This document shows positions 2,800 to 8,001 of a stretch of 8,277 bases of DNA, piece by piece (the stretch's first letter is position 1; each line of letters begins with the position of its first letter). The position numbers were made by a program, and so were the translations under genes. Source of the DNA: a virus (Duplodnaviria; Heunggongvirae; Uroviricota; Caudoviricetes); the IMG/VR virus record IMGVR_UViG_2740892421_000006. One strand, given 5' to 3'. The notes under the pieces are model-generated. The model was not told where the DNA came from. It saw only the letters and a list, made by a program, of their open reading frames with translations, and ran no database searches.

Positions 2800-3219
2800 A
2801 TGAAAGCAAAAAACTTAATGATTCTAATGCTAACCACGTCACTAATTGGGTGTTCGTCTTCGTCTATATCTATTTCAAAGGCAAAGGATGCACCTCAAAG
2901 CAGAATATTTAAATATCAAACACTACATGAGTCTAGTCTAACAATAGTTCGAGACAAAGGGCTGGTTGGTTCTGCATGTAACGCTTCCATTTTCATCAAT
3001 GGAGAAACGGCTGCAAAGCTAGAACCTGGTGAAAAAGCAACTTTCTACCTTAACGAAGGAGAGTGGATCGTTGGGACATCAATTGAAAGTTCAGGTCTTT
3101 GCGCATTTAACCCCTCCAGGATGGAACGAGAAATAAAGCTAAAGCAGGGCGACTCGAAAACATATCGGGTTTTCACTACCTGGGATGGTACAATGGACAT
3201 ATTGCCAACCACTTTATAA
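2800..3219 (+). CDS. putative lipoprotein (139 aa), predicted outer-membrane sorted
   Basis: N-terminus MKAKNLMILMLTTSLIGCSSSS: hydrophobic h-region plus lipobox L-I-G-C; residue +2 after Cys is Ser (no Lol avoidance Asp). Stop TAA 3217-3219. Confidence 0.65.
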   Translation: MKAKNLMILMLTTSLIGCSSSSISISKAKDAPQSRIFKYQTLHESSLTIVRDKGLVGSACNASIFINGETAAKLEPGEKATFYLNEGEWIVGTSIESSGLCAFNPSRMEREIKLKQGDSKTYRVFTTWDGTMDILPTTL

Positions 3220-3748
3220 TGATATGACGACGAAAGATATCACCTACGGCATACCGGCTGAAGTATGGCCGCGAGACTACGAACATGCTGAACGCACCTT
3301 GCTCTTCTGGCGGAGAGCTAAATTTCCTGTAAGAGTCACTCTCGAAGACGGCCAAGTGTTTTGCATGTACGTTTATGGTCTCATGTCATCTCGTAACAAA
3401 GTTGACCTTTGTCCAACTCCATTTGACAAAGAAAATCGTATAAGGCTCCCACTTGAGCGCATTAGCACAATTGAATCAGGCGTAATTGATGGCATTGATT
3501 ACGATTTCAAAGGGAGACTAACAATACACCCTGACTATGTAGACAACCAGCCATCACGTCGTGACTTTTTTAAGATATGTCGCAAGGCTTATCAAAACGG
3601 CCAATCTATAAGGGTCTACATGGCAGACGGCCGCGAAATTGAGGGAACGTCAGATGGCGTTGATGCCTGCCTAGTCACACTTAAGTTGAACGACGGCAGA
3701 AAAATTCTTGTTTTCTTCGATTGGGTTGAACGAATTTTACCTTTTTGA
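3185..3748 (+). CDS. hypothetical protein with internal tandem repeat, possibly Rof/YaeO-like; start uncertain (3185 or 3224)
   Basis: Long ORF; the alternative ATG at 3224 lies 5 nt after the lipoprotein stop. Two similar segments (VRVTLEDGQ...NRIRLPLERISTIE and VTLKLNDGRKILVFFDWVERI). By memory the first resembles E. coli Rof (LTLELKDGE...SRKNVEY...RELRLDKITS); not verified. Confidence 0.55.
   Translation: MVQWTYCQPLYNDMTTKDITYGIPAEVWPRDYEHAERTLLFWRRAKFPVRVTLEDGQVFCMYVYGLMSSRNKVDLCPTPFDKENRIRLPLERISTIESGVIDGIDYDFKGRLTIHPDYVDNQPSRRDFFKICRKAYQNGQSIRVYMADGREIEGTSDGVDACLVTLKLNDGRKILVFFDWVERILPF
3692..3748. repeat. direct repeat copy 1 (3' end of the 187-aa gene)
   Basis: gacggcagaaaaattcttgttttcttcgatt... 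is ~93% identical to 4058-4114; this copy encodes the C-terminal DGRKILVFFDWVERILPF. Confidence 0.85.
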
Positions 3749-5357: not shown

Positions 5358-5370
5358 TTAATGGAATCTT

Positions 5371-5391
5371 GCGCCCACTATGGGCGCTTTT
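5371..5391 (+). terminator. intercistronic hairpin (partial terminator/attenuator)
   Basis: gcgccca-cta-tgggcgc followed by only tttt, then immediately the SD aaggag (5392-5397) of the next gene; the same stem sequence as the terminator at 5641-5665. Confidence 0.5.
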
Positions 5392-5404: not shown

Positions 5405-5635
5405 ATGTTTATTCTTATCGCTGGCGTTAACGTGCGCAATGAATATTTTGTTAATCGCATCGCTGGGATCGCTGGTTACGCTGGGCGCGCAGTCGAGTTT
5501 ATCGATGAAACGACGCGCAAAATTGACTTATTGAGCGACCAGGAGCGAAAAAAAGCAGACGTGAATGACGCTGATATATTTTTAATGTTGAAAGCGTTTG
5601 TAGAAATGGGATTCAAAATTAGTTTACACAAATAA
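5405..5635 (+). CDS. hypothetical small protein (76 aa)
   Basis: SD aaggag 7 nt upstream of ATG 5405 (MFILIAGVNVR...); the ORF-track start at 5369 falls within the upstream hairpin. Stop TAA 5633-5635. Confidence 0.55.
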   Translation: MFILIAGVNVRNEYFVNRIAGIAGYAGRAVEFIDETTRKIDLLSDQERKKADVNDADIFLMLKAFVEMGFKISLHK

Positions 5636-5640
5636 AATCG

Positions 5641-5665
5641 AGCGCCCACTATGGGCGCTTTTTTC
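5641..5665 (+). terminator. Rho-independent terminator
   Basis: Stem agcgccca (5641-5648) / tgggcgct (5652-5659), 3-nt loop, then a T6 run; 6 nt after the stop of the 76-aa gene. Confidence 0.75.
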
Positions 5666-5685: not shown

Positions 5686-5712
5686 AACGCGCCATCATTG
5701 GCGCGTTTTTTA
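5686..5712 (+). terminator. second (tandem) Rho-independent terminator
   Basis: 8-bp GC-rich stem aacgcgcc (5686-5693) / ggcgcgtt (5700-5707), loop atcatt, then ttttttatt. Confidence 0.7.
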
Positions 5713-5980
5713 TTGTCTTTAACTCGCTCCAACAACATAAAAATAAGCACCAAAATAACGCCATAGACGCACTTTTATATCCTTACCAGTACATACCCAT
5801 TACTTAACACATTAACGCGCTTAAAACGCGTTATATTGCGCTATAGAGTATGGTTAATCATTGGCTTTTAGTCTTGCTATGTGATCCGCGTTTATTTGTC
5901 GGCGCGGATCGGTTCTTTGTGTTGTTTTGTATCCGCTCGCGTATTATGTGCGCGTGATTTTTCACATAATCACACCACTT

Positions 5981-5996
5981 AATCACATATGTGATT
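5981..5996. promoter_or_regulatory. perfect 16-bp palindrome AATCACATATGTGATT (candidate operator)
   Basis: Exact dyad symmetry; sits in a cluster of TCACA/TGTGA pentamers (5954-5996) within a noncoding region. Confidence 0.35.
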
Positions 5997-6125
5997 ACGC
6001 TACGAAAGAAATCTGGATGTCTCAGGCGACGAAAGTCATCATAATTTTCCCCGCTCACCTGTCCGACAACCGCTGGTTGGATTCCACCAGCTTCCCGATG
6101 TTTTTTCTACATAAAGGCGAATGCA

Positions 6126-6238
6126 GCCGTTTCCCGAAAAAATCCTGGCCGTTTCCCGTCGGCTCATGAATACGTTCCTCGCCGTTTCTGAAAATTTCCC
6201 TGAGGCAGCTGGTGTCTATAGAGAAAGGGCCGTTTCTG
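6126..6238. repeat. four direct repeats of GCCGTTTC(C/T)(C/T)G
   Basis: Copies at 6126-6136, 6148-6158, 6181-6190 and 6229-6238, with spacings of 22, 33 and 48 bp, in an otherwise noncoding stretch. Confidence 0.6.
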
Positions 6239-6249
6239 GCCCTCTTCTC
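6221..6249 (-). terminator. putative terminator hairpin of the minus-strand gene block
   Basis: Inverted repeat agggcc (6226-6231) / ggccct (6238-6243), extendable with gagaa/ttctc; lies 3 nt downstream (minus sense) of the 160-aa gene stop; the U-tract is only moderate. Confidence 0.4.
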
Positions 6250-6251
6250 AG

Positions 6252-6734
6252 TTACACGCCATCAAGGATGTGGATGCGGTTGCTTGCGTATACATTCAGC
6301 ATAAAGTTAGCGCAAAACAGTTTCCATGTATCAACGCCAGCGGTATACGTAATGTTTTTGCATTTAATTGCATTGTTGGCGATCCGCATCCCCTGCGATA
6401 CTGCTTCATCGTCGGAAAATTTGAACGACGATTGAGTTTTAATCCAGACAGAAATCTGCGTAGCGAACTCAATCAGCTTGGACTGGCAGAATCGCCCGGA
6501 GCGCACCGGAAAGACGAACGTTCCGAATCCAGAATTTACCACATACGCTTTCTCAAATACCCGCGAGTAACGACGATTGCCAATGATGTCGCGTGCAATA
6601 ATGCATTTTTCTTGTGCTGACAGTTCTACCGTCTCATTGTCGCGCCATGCACCAAGTACTCGTTTTTCAATGTCAGAGAACGTTACAGCGATATTGCCAT
6701 GTGCGGGTGCGTTTACAGTAGCGATAAAATTCAT
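6252..6734 (-). CDS. hypothetical protein (160 aa)
   Basis: Minus-strand ORF with SD aagga 7 nt upstream of ATG (6732-6734); stop TAA 6252-6254. No recognisable motifs. Confidence 0.55.
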   Translation of the reverse strand: MNFIATVNAPAHGNIAVTFSDIEKRVLGAWRDNETVELSAQEKCIIARDIIGNRRYSRVFEKAYVVNSGFGTFVFPVRSGRFCQSKLIEFATQISVWIKTQSSFKFSDDEAVSQGMRIANNAIKCKNITYTAGVDTWKLFCANFMLNVYASNRIHILDGV

Positions 6735-6932: not shown

Positions 6933-6936
6933 GTTT

Positions 6937-7869
6937 TCAACTGGAATAAGAATAATCTGTATTGATGAGTAAAGGCGCATCATCCACTAATCCTGACAGA
7001 AACCAGCGAGCAGTCCCGTAAAGTTCAAGGGCGTCAAGATAGCCTTCATGCAGTGCACCAACCCCAAACACATCATTATCAGCCATAGCTACCGCATCTA
7101 CGGCCAGATACTCTATGAGTTCTTCCATGCTTTTTATATTTATATCGTCTAAAATCTCCAGTTTGTTCTCAATCTCATTGAAAGGGATATCCGGCATCGA
7201 ATGCACTATGATTTTTGGCACATCATTCTCATTATTTACCTCCACAATAACAATTCCATACTCTGTAAAAAGAGAACTAAAGAATCTATTAAACTCTAAA
7301 TTAACAAAAGATGCCGAACCATTTAAACGCTCAACATATGGGGAACGAAAAGCTGAATGTAAATTATTTTTTCTACTTTCCTTGCCATATTCTATAATCA
7401 ACTCTTTATTTTTGATCTTCTCGAGTATTCCACCTAGCTCCTCTACAATTAAAGCGCCAGTGTTTTCTCTTTCTTTTGATACTATAGTTGAAAGACTGAT
7501 CAAGGCTTCTGTTATACTGTTATTAGAAACGATCAGATGAAATAGCTCCAGCATAGCCAATCGACCACTATCAGTGAACGTAACAAAGTTTATTGCATCT
7601 ATTTCATTTTTAATCGCAAGAAACTCACATTTATTTTTGATGTTTTCCCGAATTGACATCTCCACACGCTGTCTTATTCTCAACACCTGCTTAAAGTAAG
7701 TATTTTCAAAACATTCGACAGAAAATGTCTTCTTACCATCATTCACAATAGCCAATCTGTATTCACATTCAAGACCATTAAGTTCAAGGCAATCACAGTC
7801 ATATTGGGACCCATCTTTAACTGAAAACAATTCACTAATGTCAATTTGTCCCAAAAATACTGGTTTCAT
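6937..7869 (-). CDS. hypothetical protein (310 aa), AT-rich cassette gene
   Basis: Minus-strand ORF with SD agga upstream of ATG (7867-7869); appears markedly more AT-rich than flanking DNA; bracketed by the two repeat copies. No recognisable catalytic motifs. Confidence 0.65.
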   Translation of the reverse strand: MKPVFLGQIDISELFSVKDGSQYDCDCLELNGLECEYRLAIVNDGKKTFSVECFENTYFKQVLRIRQRVEMSIRENIKNKCEFLAIKNEIDAINFVTFTDSGRLAMLELFHLIVSNNSITEALISLSTIVSKERENTGALIVEELGGILEKIKNKELIIEYGKESRKNNLHSAFRSPYVERLNGSASFVNLEFNRFFSSLFTEYGIVIVEVNNENDVPKIIVHSMPDIPFNEIENKLEILDDINIKSMEELIEYLAVDAVAMADNDVFGVGALHEGYLDALELYGTARWFLSGLVDDAPLLINTDYSYSS

Positions 7870-7949
7870 TTTTAATTCCTCGTTTGTTTTCGATGTGATA
7901 ATTATCGCTGAATGAAATAGGCTAAAAAGAAGATTTGTAAGGCAACTAT

Positions 7950-8001
7950 CTGGAAGTAAGGCAAAGGGTGGTCATTTAAGACCACCAATGCTGGTGGCCT
8001 T
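7950..8001. repeat. cassette-flanking repeat, right copy (tandem hairpins, contains Chi octamer)
   Basis: ctggaagtaagg ... ggtggtc-atttaa-gaccacc (7967-7986) overlapping ccacca-atgc-tggtgg (7982-7997); GCTGGTGG at 7990-7997. Relative to the left copy it lacks an ~18-22-bp internal segment. Confidence 0.8.

What the first reader, a model, noticed from the sequence alone, without database searches (positions are those of the whole stretch)
5713..6217. Repeat- and palindrome-dense noncoding region between convergent terminators
The ~500 bp between the plus-block terminators (ending 5712) and the minus-block terminator (6221-6249) contain no convincing ORF. They do contain a hairpin gatccgcg/cgcggatc (5883-5910), a palindrome taacgcg-N7-cgcgtta (near 5813-5835), a TCACA/TGTGA cluster ending in the perfect 16-bp palindrome AATCACATATGTGATT (5981-5996), and four direct repeats of GCCGTTTCYYG (6126-6238). 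Iterated direct repeats next to operator-like palindromes are typical of iteron-type replication origins, packaging or attachment sites, and multi-operator control regions. The region could also encode a structured small RNA.
Basis: seen in the sequence. Interest (0 to 1): 0.55.

Follow-up and report, generated by a model that had tools for sequence, protein, structure and literature searches.

The report
Conserved repeat array in phage-plasmid spacer
The roughly 600-bp gap is a real, conserved non-coding spacer of the SSU5/pHCM2/pMT1 family of phage-plasmids. Its core is a phased array of GCCGTTTCC repeats that looks like a docking site for an unknown DNA-binding protein, possibly a second replication or control site, but no function was shown.

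Summary
The window comes from an SSU5-type phage-plasmid; its best match is E. coli plasmid pCPF6 at 99% identity. The gap lies between convergent operons and is closed by two strong terminators on the left and one on the right.

It is unannotated in all relatives examined but conserved in about 780 plasmids of Escherichia, Klebsiella, Enterobacter, Salmonella (pHCM2), Yersinia pestis (pMT1), Citrobacter and Cronobacter.

**What is conserved and what is not**
- Conserved: the direct repeats, GCCGTTTCY at 22- and 33-bp spacing, plus a few short blocks.
- Lineage-specific: the 5883-5910 hairpin and the 16-bp palindrome.

**Negative results**
- No Rfam hit and no conserved RNA fold outside the terminators.
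- No frame-specific coding signal.
- The repeats are unrelated to the plasmid's RepA iterons (GTATGCTGTCAGCGGT).

**New observations**
- A second array of six units in the same orientation lies 3.1 kb away. Three complete genomes contain only these two arrays.
- An inverted pair of Chi octamers brackets array 1 in most relatives.

My best reading is a protein-binding, iteron-like DNA site, possibly a secondary (lytic) origin or control locus. That function is inferred, not shown. Interest is moderate.

The parts
5405..5635 (+). Last gene of the plus-strand block (76 aa, phrog_1585, function unknown); left flank of the gap
   Evidence: Annotated in pCPF6 and relatives; PHROG hit.
5640..5660 (+). 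Intrinsic terminator T1 (9-bp GC stem plus T run)
   Evidence: Invariant stem across 13 relatives. A related copy lies at window ~5360-5391.
5686..5707 (+). Intrinsic terminator T2
   Evidence: The stem is conserved while the loop varies.
5713..5870 (.). A+T-rich left part of the gap. It holds the conserved block CAGTACATACCCATTAC (5787-5803) and the palindrome TAACGCG-N7-CGCGTTA (5813-5833). In relatives this zone carries variable short GCGTTTTAGC-type tandem repeats.
   Evidence: G+C is 0.38-0.39. Conservation profile. Tandem-repeat expansions in L022 and L208.
5883..5910 (.). Hairpin GATCCGCG / CGCGGATC with two GATC sites; lineage-specific
   Evidence: Present in the window group only; the right arm is absent in SSU5, Klebsiella and Yersinia relatives. 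The GATC pair is not unusual for this plasmid.
5933..5944 (.). Conserved block CCGCTCGCGTAT
5963..5997 (.). TCACA/TGTGA cluster ending in the 18-bp palindrome TAATCACATATGTGATTA; lineage-specific
   Evidence: Imperfect in most close relatives and absent in other lineages.
6003..6026 (.). Conserved block CGAAAG..ATCTGGATG.CTCAGG
6084..6091 (-). Chi octamer on the minus strand (CCACCAGC on plus); left arm of an inverted repeat that brackets the array
   Evidence: (I4). Kept in 21 of 23 non-redundant relatives, at three different offsets.
6087..6098 (+). Degenerate repeat unit R0 (CCAGCTTCCCGA)
   Evidence: family D1: 74% identical to the R1 unit.
6103..6118 (.). Conserved block TTTTCTACATAAAGGC next to R1
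6126..6136 (+). Repeat R1, GCCGTTTCCCG
   Evidence: invariant core in the aligned relatives.
6148..6158 (+). Repeat R2, GCCGTTTCCCG, 22 bp after R1
6181..6190 (+). Repeat R3, GCCGTTTCTG, 33 bp after R2
   Evidence: D3, D9.
6208..6215 (+). Chi-like octamer GCTGGTGT. It is an exact Chi (GCTGGTGG) in pCPF6 and in 14 of 23 non-redundant relatives. Right arm of the inverted repeat.
   Evidence: (I4).
6221..6249 (-). Terminator hairpin of the 160-aa gene; the fourth repeat copy (6229-6238) is in its loop
   Evidence: Fold. The stem is kept as GGGCC/GGCCC in the window group and GGGGC/GCCCC in other lineages.
6252..6734 (-). 160-aa gene (phrog_1641, function unknown); right flank of the gap

Best explanation
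The gap is a cis-acting DNA module, not a gene and not a structured RNA.

**Proposed mechanism.** Its functional core is an array of direct repeats: consensus CAGCCGTTTCCCGAAA, with units R0-R3 at 6087-6190. Unit starts are about 2 or 3 helical turns apart, so the sites face the same side of the helix. That arrangement is expected for cooperative binding of a sequence-specific protein. Terminators on both sides keep transcription out.

A second, more regular six-unit array in the same orientation lies 3.1 kb away, next to a further conserved non-coding stretch of about 1 kb. I propose that one protein, not yet identified, binds both arrays. I further propose that the pair acts in DNA transactions, most likely as a secondary (lytic-phase) replication origin or its control locus. 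This would be analogous to P1 oriR plus incA, or P4 ori plus crr (comparison from my own knowledge).

**Shown here**
- Conservation of the gap and its repeats across relatives.
- Phasing of the units.
- Uniqueness of the two arrays in three complete genomes.
- Terminator insulation on both sides.
- Absence of a coding signal or conserved RNA structure.
- Non-identity with the RepA iterons.

**Inferred**
- That a protein binds the array.
- That the two arrays communicate.
- That the function is replication.

My confidence that this is a protein-bound DNA site of some kind is about 0.65. My confidence in the replication-origin or control reading is 0.35.
For: **Conservation**
- 780 plasmid records across seven named genera match the gap.
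- The array is the best-conserved part, while the rest of the gap falls to about 60% identity.
- The units survive in the most divergent relative found, whose neighbouring protein is only 51% identical and whose gap is otherwise different.

**Array properties**
- Spacing is 22 and 33-34 bp in array 1, and 22, 32, 21, 22, 22 bp in array 2.
- A degenerate unit pattern finds only these two clusters, in the same orientation, in complete pCPF6 and SSU5. In Klebsiella pJN2-26 the scan flagged only array 2; array 1 there has two units matching the pattern.
- Four of the eight GCCGTTTC copies in 116 kb lie here.

**Context**
- Terminators flank both sides.
- An inverted Chi pair brackets the array. 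Both sites are oriented so that RecBCD moving toward the array would recognise them (orientation rule from established RecBCD biology; counts).

**Exclusions**
- No conserved RNA structure.
- No coding signal.
Against: **Origin hallmarks are missing or weak**
- No initiator-like gene is adjacent. All neighbours are unknown PHROGs with no Pfam domain. The 160-aa neighbour has no fold match.
- No perfect DnaA box and no IHF consensus. The 8-of-9 DnaA-like matches are at chance level, about 0.5 expected per gap.
- The GATC pair is ordinary for this plasmid, whereas the true oriR has 6 GATC in 60 bp.
- The A+T-rich stretch is 250-400 bp from the array, not next to it.

**Genome-wide signals do not point here**
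- GC skew only follows gene orientation.
- A genome-wide Chi polarity switch at the gap appears in pCPF6 (p = 0.026) but not in SSU5 (p = 0.24) or Klebsiella pJN2-26 (p = 0.12). In those two genomes the switch sits at RepA.

No experimental data of any kind were found for this region.
Confidence: 0.35

Rival explanations
1. Regulatory operator arrays. A phage regulator binds both arrays, which bracket the small-gene operon running from array 2 to the 160-aa gene. It then represses or insulates that operon, possibly by looping the 3.1 kb between the arrays. This would resemble lambda OL/OR looping, or the omega-repressor heptad arrays of pSM19035 (comparison from my own knowledge).
For: - Two arrays in the same orientation bracket one minus-strand operon in pCPF6, SSU5, Cyrano and Klebsiella.
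- SSU5 carries a small HTH 'repressor-like' gene between them.
- Direct-repeat arrays are typical operators of ribbon-helix-helix and winged-helix proteins (own knowledge).
Against: - Array 1 lies downstream of the operon, beyond its terminator. Array 2 is about 320-450 bp from the nearest plausible -10 element (reading by eye).
- No conserved sigma-70 promoter lies next to either array. The scan found one weak, non-conserved site.
- The HTH gene is not present in the E. coli lineage.
Confidence: 0.2
2. A transcript-level element. On the plus strand the arrays are C-rich and G-poor, and they lie at convergent junctions. They could be Rho-loading (rut) sites that stop read-through into antisense of the minus-strand genes. 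Alternatively, on the minus strand they could form an unstructured 3' tail that binds a protein through GGGAAACGG motifs.
For: - Both arrays lie at or near convergent gene junctions. In SSU5 and in Enterobacter and Citrobacter relatives a plus-strand 80-aa gene precedes array 2.
- The plus strand of the array has about twice as many C as G (sequence, counted by eye).
- Minus-strand units read SRGGRAAACGGC.
Against: - Two strong terminators already stop plus-strand transcription 400 bp upstream.
- On the minus strand the array lies beyond a terminator hairpin.
- Near-invariance of an exact 9-10-mer across genera is more than a rut site needs.
- R3 and R4 lack GGA.
- No conserved promoter or RNA structure.
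- Y. pestis RNA-seq lists two intergenic pMT1 sRNAs, both elsewhere, near ymt.
Confidence: 0.15
3. A packaging recognition site (pac or cosB-like) bound by the small terminase subunit.
For: - The units share the heptamer CGTTTCC with the three R sites of lambda cosB (lambda sequence read).
- Multi-site arrays in a transcription-free spacer fit terminase recognition sites (own knowledge).
Against: - The terminase genes lie 10 kb away in pCPF6.
- The large subunit is Terminase_6N type, and the putative small subunit has no Nu1 domain.
- All units are direct, whereas lambda R2 is inverted (PMC4669245).
- The local alignment to lambda cos gave p about 0.003 in one of six tests and was not replicated with SSU5.
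- The flanking Chi sites face the wrong way to protect ends made inside the array.
- No deposited phage record starts here.
Confidence: 0.08
4. A partition (centromere-like) site for the two ParB_N-domain proteins and the ATPase encoded 6-8 kb to the left, or for the type Ib ParA system.
For: - Two ParB_N-domain genes and an ABC-type ATPase lie upstream of the helicase block.
- Centromeres of type Ib systems are direct-repeat arrays, and N15 has dispersed centromere sites (own knowledge).
Against: - The arrays are 6.6 kb from the ParB-like genes and about 40 kb from the ParA gene.
- ParB-family HTH proteins usually bind palindromes.
- No test was possible.
Confidence: 0.05
5. A structured small RNA or a hidden small protein gene.
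For: - ORFs of 66-104 codons exist in the window.
- Several local hairpins exist.
Against: - The Rfam E-value scan gave only three hits at E = 0.1-1; the two inside the gap are driven by the two terminators.
- RNAalifold gave -17 kcal/mol over 172 columns with 0 compensatory pairs.
- Sliding windows on both strands gave between 0 and -13 kcal/mol away from the terminators.
- Translated matches occur equally in all six frames.
- The ATG at 6121 and the hairpins are not conserved.
Confidence: 0.04
6. Extra iterons of the plasmid's own RepA replicon, that is an incA-like copy-control locus.
For: The plasmid is typed IncFIB. It has a P1-like oriR with iterons on both sides of repA.
Against: - The RepA iterons read GTATGCTGTCAGCGGT, with at least 14 copies around repA. 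They share nothing with GCCGTTTCC.
- No GCCGTTTC copy lies near repA.
Confidence: 0.01

Closest known systems
Iteron arrays of theta-replicating plasmids and phage-plasmids (P1 oriR/incA, R6K 22-bp iterons, RK2, pSC101)
   Same: - Three to six direct repeats of about 11-17 bp in one orientation.
- Unit starts 22 or 33 bp apart.
- A second cluster a few kb away.
- A location free of transcription.
   Different: - No cognate Rep gene next to the array.
- No DnaA or IHF sites above chance.
- No adjacent A+T-rich unwinding element.
- The resident RepA uses unrelated iterons.
- Replication activity is untested.
Phage P4 ori and crr (two clusters of initiator-binding repeats several kb apart; from my own knowledge)
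   Same: Two separated clusters of the same short direct repeat in one orientation.
   Different: P4's repeats are bound by its primase-helicase alpha protein. No binding protein is identified here, and no requirement for either array has been shown.
Lambda cosB (R3, R2 and R1 sites for gpNu1)
   Same: - The shared core CGTTTCC.
- Several sites within about 120 bp.
   Different: - All units here are direct.
- No IHF site lies between them.
- The array is 10 kb from the terminase genes.
- The terminase is of a different family.
- The overall alignment is not significant.
Chi sites (GCTGGTGG), the RecBCD regulatory sequence
   Same: Exact octamers on opposite strands bracket the array in most relatives, always in the same relative orientation.
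   Different: - The arms match for 9-12 nt, slightly longer than Chi (contexts), so an inverted repeat as such may be the selected feature.
- The right-hand site is mutated in the window itself, in SSU5 and in pMT1.
- Both sites are absent in the most divergent relative.

Membership tests
Iteron-type replication origin | Three or more direct repeats in one orientation, phased at about whole helical turns | tested here: met
   R1-R3 at 22 and 33 bp. Array 2 has six units at 21-22 bp, with one gap of 32 bp.
Iteron-type replication origin | Cognate initiator (Rep) gene adjacent to or overlapping the repeats | tested here: not met
Iteron-type replication origin | Adjacent A+T-rich unwinding element, with DnaA boxes and/or an IHF site | tested here: inconclusive
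   An A+T-rich zone exists but is 250-400 bp away. There are only 8-of-9 DnaA-like matches, at chance frequency, and no IHF consensus.
Iteron-type replication origin | Supports autonomous or helper-dependent replication | not testable with these tools
   Needs cloning or marker-frequency data.
RepFIB/P1-type RepA iterons (oriR/incA) | Sequence match to the RepA iteron of the same plasmid | tested here: not met
   The RepA iterons are GTATGCTGTCAGCGGT. No GCCGTTTC copy lies near repA.
Lambda-type cos (cosB R sites) | R sites with R2 inverted, an IHF site between R3 and R2, next to cosN and the small terminase gene | tested here: not met
   All units are direct, there is no IHF consensus, and the terminase genes are 10 kb away.
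Curated RNA family or structured sRNA | Rfam match at or near the gathering score, or a conserved fold with covariation | tested here: not met
   The best in-gap hits score 20-23 bits against cut-offs of 46-50, and they cover the terminators. There were 0 compensatory pairs and only weak consensus energies.
CsrB/RsmZ-type protein-sponge RNA | Many GGA motifs in hairpin loops, with its own promoter and terminator | tested here: not met
   R3 and R4 read CAGAAACGGC on the minus strand, without GGA. No conserved hairpins or promoter were found.
Protein-coding gene | An open frame conserved in relatives, with frame-specific similarity | tested here: not met
   Matches occur in all six frames over the same DNA. 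The alignment has 1-2-nt indels and non-conserved start codons.
Intrinsic terminators at the gap borders | G+C-rich stem followed by a T run, conserved across relatives | tested here: met
   T1 and T2. Minus-strand hairpin: with lineage-specific stem variants.
Chi site | Exact GCTGGTGG | tested here: met
   The left site is exact in the window (6084-6091, minus strand). The right site is GCTGGTGT in the window but exact in pCPF6 and in 14 of 23 relatives.

The most novel reading that the evidence does not exclude
The two GCCGTTTCC arrays, together with the conserved non-coding tract of about 1 kb beside array 2, form the still unidentified lytic-phase origin region of the SSU5/pHCM2/pMT1 phage-plasmids. 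On this reading an initiator that no current family model recognises fires the origin. Inward-facing Chi sites guard it by turning RecBCD from a nuclease into a recombinase before it reaches the array.
Probability: 0.25. Interest if true: 0.6.

Novelty: new member of a known kind. Interest (0 to 1): 0.42.

Why it matters
SSU5-type phage-plasmids are common in clinical Enterobacterales. They include pHCM2 of Salmonella Typhi and the backbone of pMT1 of Yersinia pestis, and some carry resistance genes. Apart from RepA/oriR, their cis-acting sites are not described in any paper I could find.

A conserved, terminator-insulated array of protein-binding sites that occurs exactly twice per genome is a concrete candidate for the lytic origin, a copy-control locus or a regulatory switch. 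It also gives a short, invariant probe (GCCGTTTCCCGAAA) for finding the protein that binds it.

If the array turns out to be only a regulatory or termination element, the result is of local interest.

Tried and rejected
1. **Rfam scan of the whole window.** It returned only chance-level hits.
2. **RNAalifold on the array and sliding windows on both strands.** No conserved structure apart from the terminators.
3. **Six-frame tblastn of the gap ORFs.** No preferred frame.
4. **RepA iterons.** Unrelated sequence.
5. **Genome-wide Chi polarity switch at the gap.** It looked striking in pCPF6 (22 of 26, p = 0.026) but failed in SSU5 and Klebsiella pJN2-26, so I dropped it as family-level evidence.
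6. **GC skew.** It follows gene orientation only.
7. **GATC clustering.** Ordinary for this plasmid.
8. **DnaA and IHF motifs.** At chance level.
9. **Lambda cos similarity.** Only the core heptamer is shared.
10. **The 160-aa neighbour.** Homologues are family-restricted. The model is good, but there is no fold match.
11. **Pfam, PHROG and PADLOC on the neighbours.** All of unknown function.
12. **A looser two-unit pattern in viral contigs.** It returned unrelated hexamer tandem repeats.
13. **Yersinia pestis sRNA lists.** The two intergenic pMT1 sRNAs listed map elsewhere.
14. **Literature on SSU5 genome ends or origins.** Nothing was found, and two older key papers are not held.
15. **The 51-kb Cronobacter deletion derivative.** It keeps both arrays but is too decayed to be informative.

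Full report
**Where the window comes from.** The region 5600-6300 matches 239 E. coli plasmids and no chromosome. The best match is pCPF6-IncFIB at 99% identity. In phage records it matches Escherichia phages Cyrano, CMS-2020a and PhiR41_1 at about 96%. It matches Salmonella phage SSU5 and several Klebsiella phage-plasmids at 66-75%. In the plasmid collection 780 records match, from Klebsiella, Escherichia, Enterobacter, Yersinia (pMT1), Salmonella (pHCM2), Citrobacter and Cronobacter, and nearly all are non-mobilizable IncFIB. The window is therefore a piece of an SSU5/pHCM2/pMT1-type phage-plasmid.

**The observation.**
- The two plus-strand terminators at 5640-5660 and 5686-5707 are strong: -31.2 kcal/mol, z = -6.1.
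- The hairpin at 6221-6249 folds on the minus strand at -18.5 kcal/mol, directly after the stop codon of the 160-aa gene.
- The fourth 'repeat' lies in the loop of that hairpin.
- In the near-identical complete plasmid, the 8-mer GCCGTTTC occurs eight times on both strands of 116 kb, and four of these fall within 104 bp here.

**Genomic setting.** In pCPF6 a short plus-strand block, running from a helicase gene to a 76-aa gene, converges here on a long run of minus-strand genes. The gap between them is about 600 bp and is unannotated in pCPF6, Cyrano, pJN2-26, pMT1, pHCM2 and nine further relatives. The only exception is a 40-codon call that overlaps the terminators in SSU5 and one Citrobacter plasmid.

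**What is conserved.** I aligned 13 diverse relatives. I then aligned 65 distinct sequences recovered with a 26-base pattern from genome and viral collections. Five kinds of feature are kept across lineages:
- the two terminators;
- short blocks at 5787-5803, 5933-5944, 6003-6026 and 6103-6118;
- the repeat units R1, R2 and R3 with their spacing (22 bp, then 33-34 bp);
- the tail TTCCCTG.GGCAGCTGGTG;
- the minus-strand hairpin, whose stem is GGGCC/GGCCC in the window's group and GGGGC/GCCCC elsewhere.

The rest of the gap is only about 60% identical and full of indels. The hairpin at 5883-5910 lacks its right arm outside the window's E. coli lineage. The 16-bp palindrome is imperfect in most close relatives and absent in the other lineages.

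In the most divergent relative found, the neighbouring protein is 51% identical. There the gap is otherwise unrecognisable and carries an 8-bp tandem repeat, yet GCCGTTTCCC units are still present.

**Not coding, not a structured RNA.**
- Stop-to-stop ORFs of the window's gap give translated matches to relatives in all six frames over the same DNA blocks, so no frame is preferred.
- Rfam gave three matches at E = 0.1-1. The two inside the gap are caused by the two terminators.
- RNAalifold on the array region of 15 diverse sequences gave -17 kcal/mol over 172 columns, with no compensatory pair.
- Sliding windows on both strands gave strong consensus folds only over the terminators.
- A sigma-70 scan found one weak site, in a non-conserved stretch.

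**A second array.** Just outside the window, 3.1 kb to the right in pCPF6, another unannotated gap holds six units of the same motif (GCCGTTCC, GCCTTTTCC, ACCGTTTCC and similar). Their spacings are 22, 32, 21, 22 and 22 bp, in the same orientation, and again they sit next to a minus-strand terminator hairpin.

This array is present in SSU5, Cyrano, Klebsiella, Kluyvera and the Cronobacter derivative. A degenerate unit pattern with a cluster criterion, run on three complete genomes, returned only these two loci. BLAST of the gap against the whole plasmid found no other paralogy, apart from an extra copy of terminator T1.

To the right of array 2 lies about 1 kb of conserved, G/T-rich non-coding DNA with repeated GTAATGGC motifs. 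It is shared by the E. coli, Salmonella and Klebsiella lineages.

**Not the plasmid's own iterons.** The RepA replicon of pCPF6 has a P1-like layout. It has four to six GATC-containing TAGATCC repeats and at least 14 iterons reading GTATGCTGTCAGCGGT on both sides of repA. These share nothing with the GCCGTTTCC units, and none of the latter lie near repA.

**Chi sites.** The array is bracketed by CCACCAGC on the left (6084-6091) and GCTGGTGG on the right. In the window itself the right site has mutated to GCTGGTGT at 6208-6215.
- Among 23 relatives that differ by more than 3%, 21 keep the left octamer. It sits at three different offsets (-42, about -64 and about -87 from R1), each in a different sequence context.
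- Fourteen keep the right one.
- Neither is ever found in the opposite orientation.
- By the established orientation rule, both would be recognised by RecBCD travelling toward the array.
- The arms match for 9-12 nt, so the selected feature may be an inverted repeat rather than Chi as such.

In pCPF6 the whole-plasmid Chi polarity appeared to switch exactly here (best partition 22 of 26, p = 0.026). This did not hold in SSU5 (p = 0.24) or Klebsiella pJN2-26 (p = 0.12). In those genomes the origin-type switch lies at RepA and the opposite switch lies near the integrase/tRNA region. I therefore use only the local pair as evidence.

**Tests of origin-like and packaging-like features.**
- GC skew follows gene orientation and says nothing about replication.
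- Two GATC sites within 60 bp occur 87 times in the plasmid, so the pair in the gap is unremarkable.
- DnaA-box-like matches are 8 of 9 at best, at about the chance rate, and there is no IHF consensus.
- The units share the heptamer CGTTTCC with the three lambda cosB R sites. A local alignment with lambda cos was marginal in one of six tests and was not reproduced with SSU5.
- The terminase genes are 10 kb away and of a different family.
- All other neighbours are of unknown function.

**Interpretation.** The evidence fits a cis-acting DNA site best. It shows near-invariant short direct repeats on one face of the helix, protection from transcription on both sides, and exactly two copies per genome in one orientation. 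It shows no sign of a gene or a folded RNA.

Which DNA transaction the site serves is inferred, not shown. I favour a secondary (lytic-phase) origin or its control locus (0.35). My reasons are the iteron-like phasing, the two-cluster layout, the adjoining large non-coding tract and the inward-facing Chi pair. This reading lacks an identified initiator and the usual host-factor sites.

The rivals are:
- operator arrays that bracket and control the small-gene operon (0.20);
- a transcript-level role such as Rho loading at convergent junctions (0.15);
- a packaging site (0.08);
- a centromere (0.05);
- an sRNA or small ORF (0.04);
- RepA iterons (0.01).

**Novelty and verdict.** I found no description of this element in the papers searched. 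It is a new example of a familiar kind of feature, a phased protein-binding repeat array, in a clinically widespread family of phage-plasmids.

Noticed in passing
L001 10640-10800 (pCPF6 about 84,995-85,155), 3.1 kb right of the finding and outside the window: A second array of six GCCGTTTCC-type units at about 22-bp spacing, in the same orientation as array 1, next to a minus-strand terminator hairpin. It is conserved in SSU5, Cyrano, Klebsiella, Kluyvera and Cronobacter relatives.
   Followed up: yes
L001 10880-11860; SSU5 L002 10280-11290; Klebsiella L004 9650-10690: About 1 kb of conserved, G/T-rich non-coding DNA beside array 2. It has four or five GTAATGGC motifs and a tandem pair of about 42-bp units reading TAGCCTG..AGAGGTGGGT. 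In SSU5 and Klebsiella it is largely unannotated apart from small hypothetical ORF calls.
   Followed up: partly
window 6933-7964: A 1,030-bp insertion relative to pCPF6. It carries a 310-aa ORF (6937-7869, minus strand) with low G+C (0.32-0.35) and strong negative GC skew. The ORF has no hit in Pfam, PHROGs or PADLOC.
   Followed up: partly
whole genomes of SSU5 (L090-L092) and Klebsiella pJN2-26 (L210-L212): Chi orientation flips with origin-type polarity at RepA/oriR. It flips with the opposite polarity near the integrase/tRNA region, giving very unequal arms. pCPF6 differs in its 82-116 kb arc.
   Followed up: partly
window 2800-3219 (+): A 139-aa ORF with a lipoprotein-like N-terminus (MKAKNLMILMLTTSLIGCSSS) is not annotated in the RefSeq record of pCPF6. 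That record shows a gap at this position.
   Followed up: no
window about 5360-5391: A further copy of the T1 terminator hairpin (87.5% identical over 32 nt) lies between the 236-aa and 76-aa genes. The AGCGCCCACTATGGGCGCT hairpin is therefore reused within 300 bp.
   Followed up: no
window 3185-3748 (+): A gene with a full-length Flag1_repress (FljA, repressor of phase-1 flagellin) domain, E = 3e-80. It is conserved in the whole plasmid family.
   Followed up: no
L208 5732-5801; L022 (Buttiauxella) gap: The A+T-rich left half of the gap carries lineage-specific expansions of short tandem repeats. L208 has 6.8 copies of an 8-bp unit (CATTTAGC). L022 has extra 10-bp GCGTTTTAGC units.
   Followed up: partly
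pMT1 (L005) and pHCM2 (L006) RefSeq records: Locus-tag numbering skips one number exactly at the gap (RS22050 to RS22060, and RS25175 to RS25185). The original records may therefore hold a pseudogene or other feature there that the plasmid gene table does not list.
   Followed up: no
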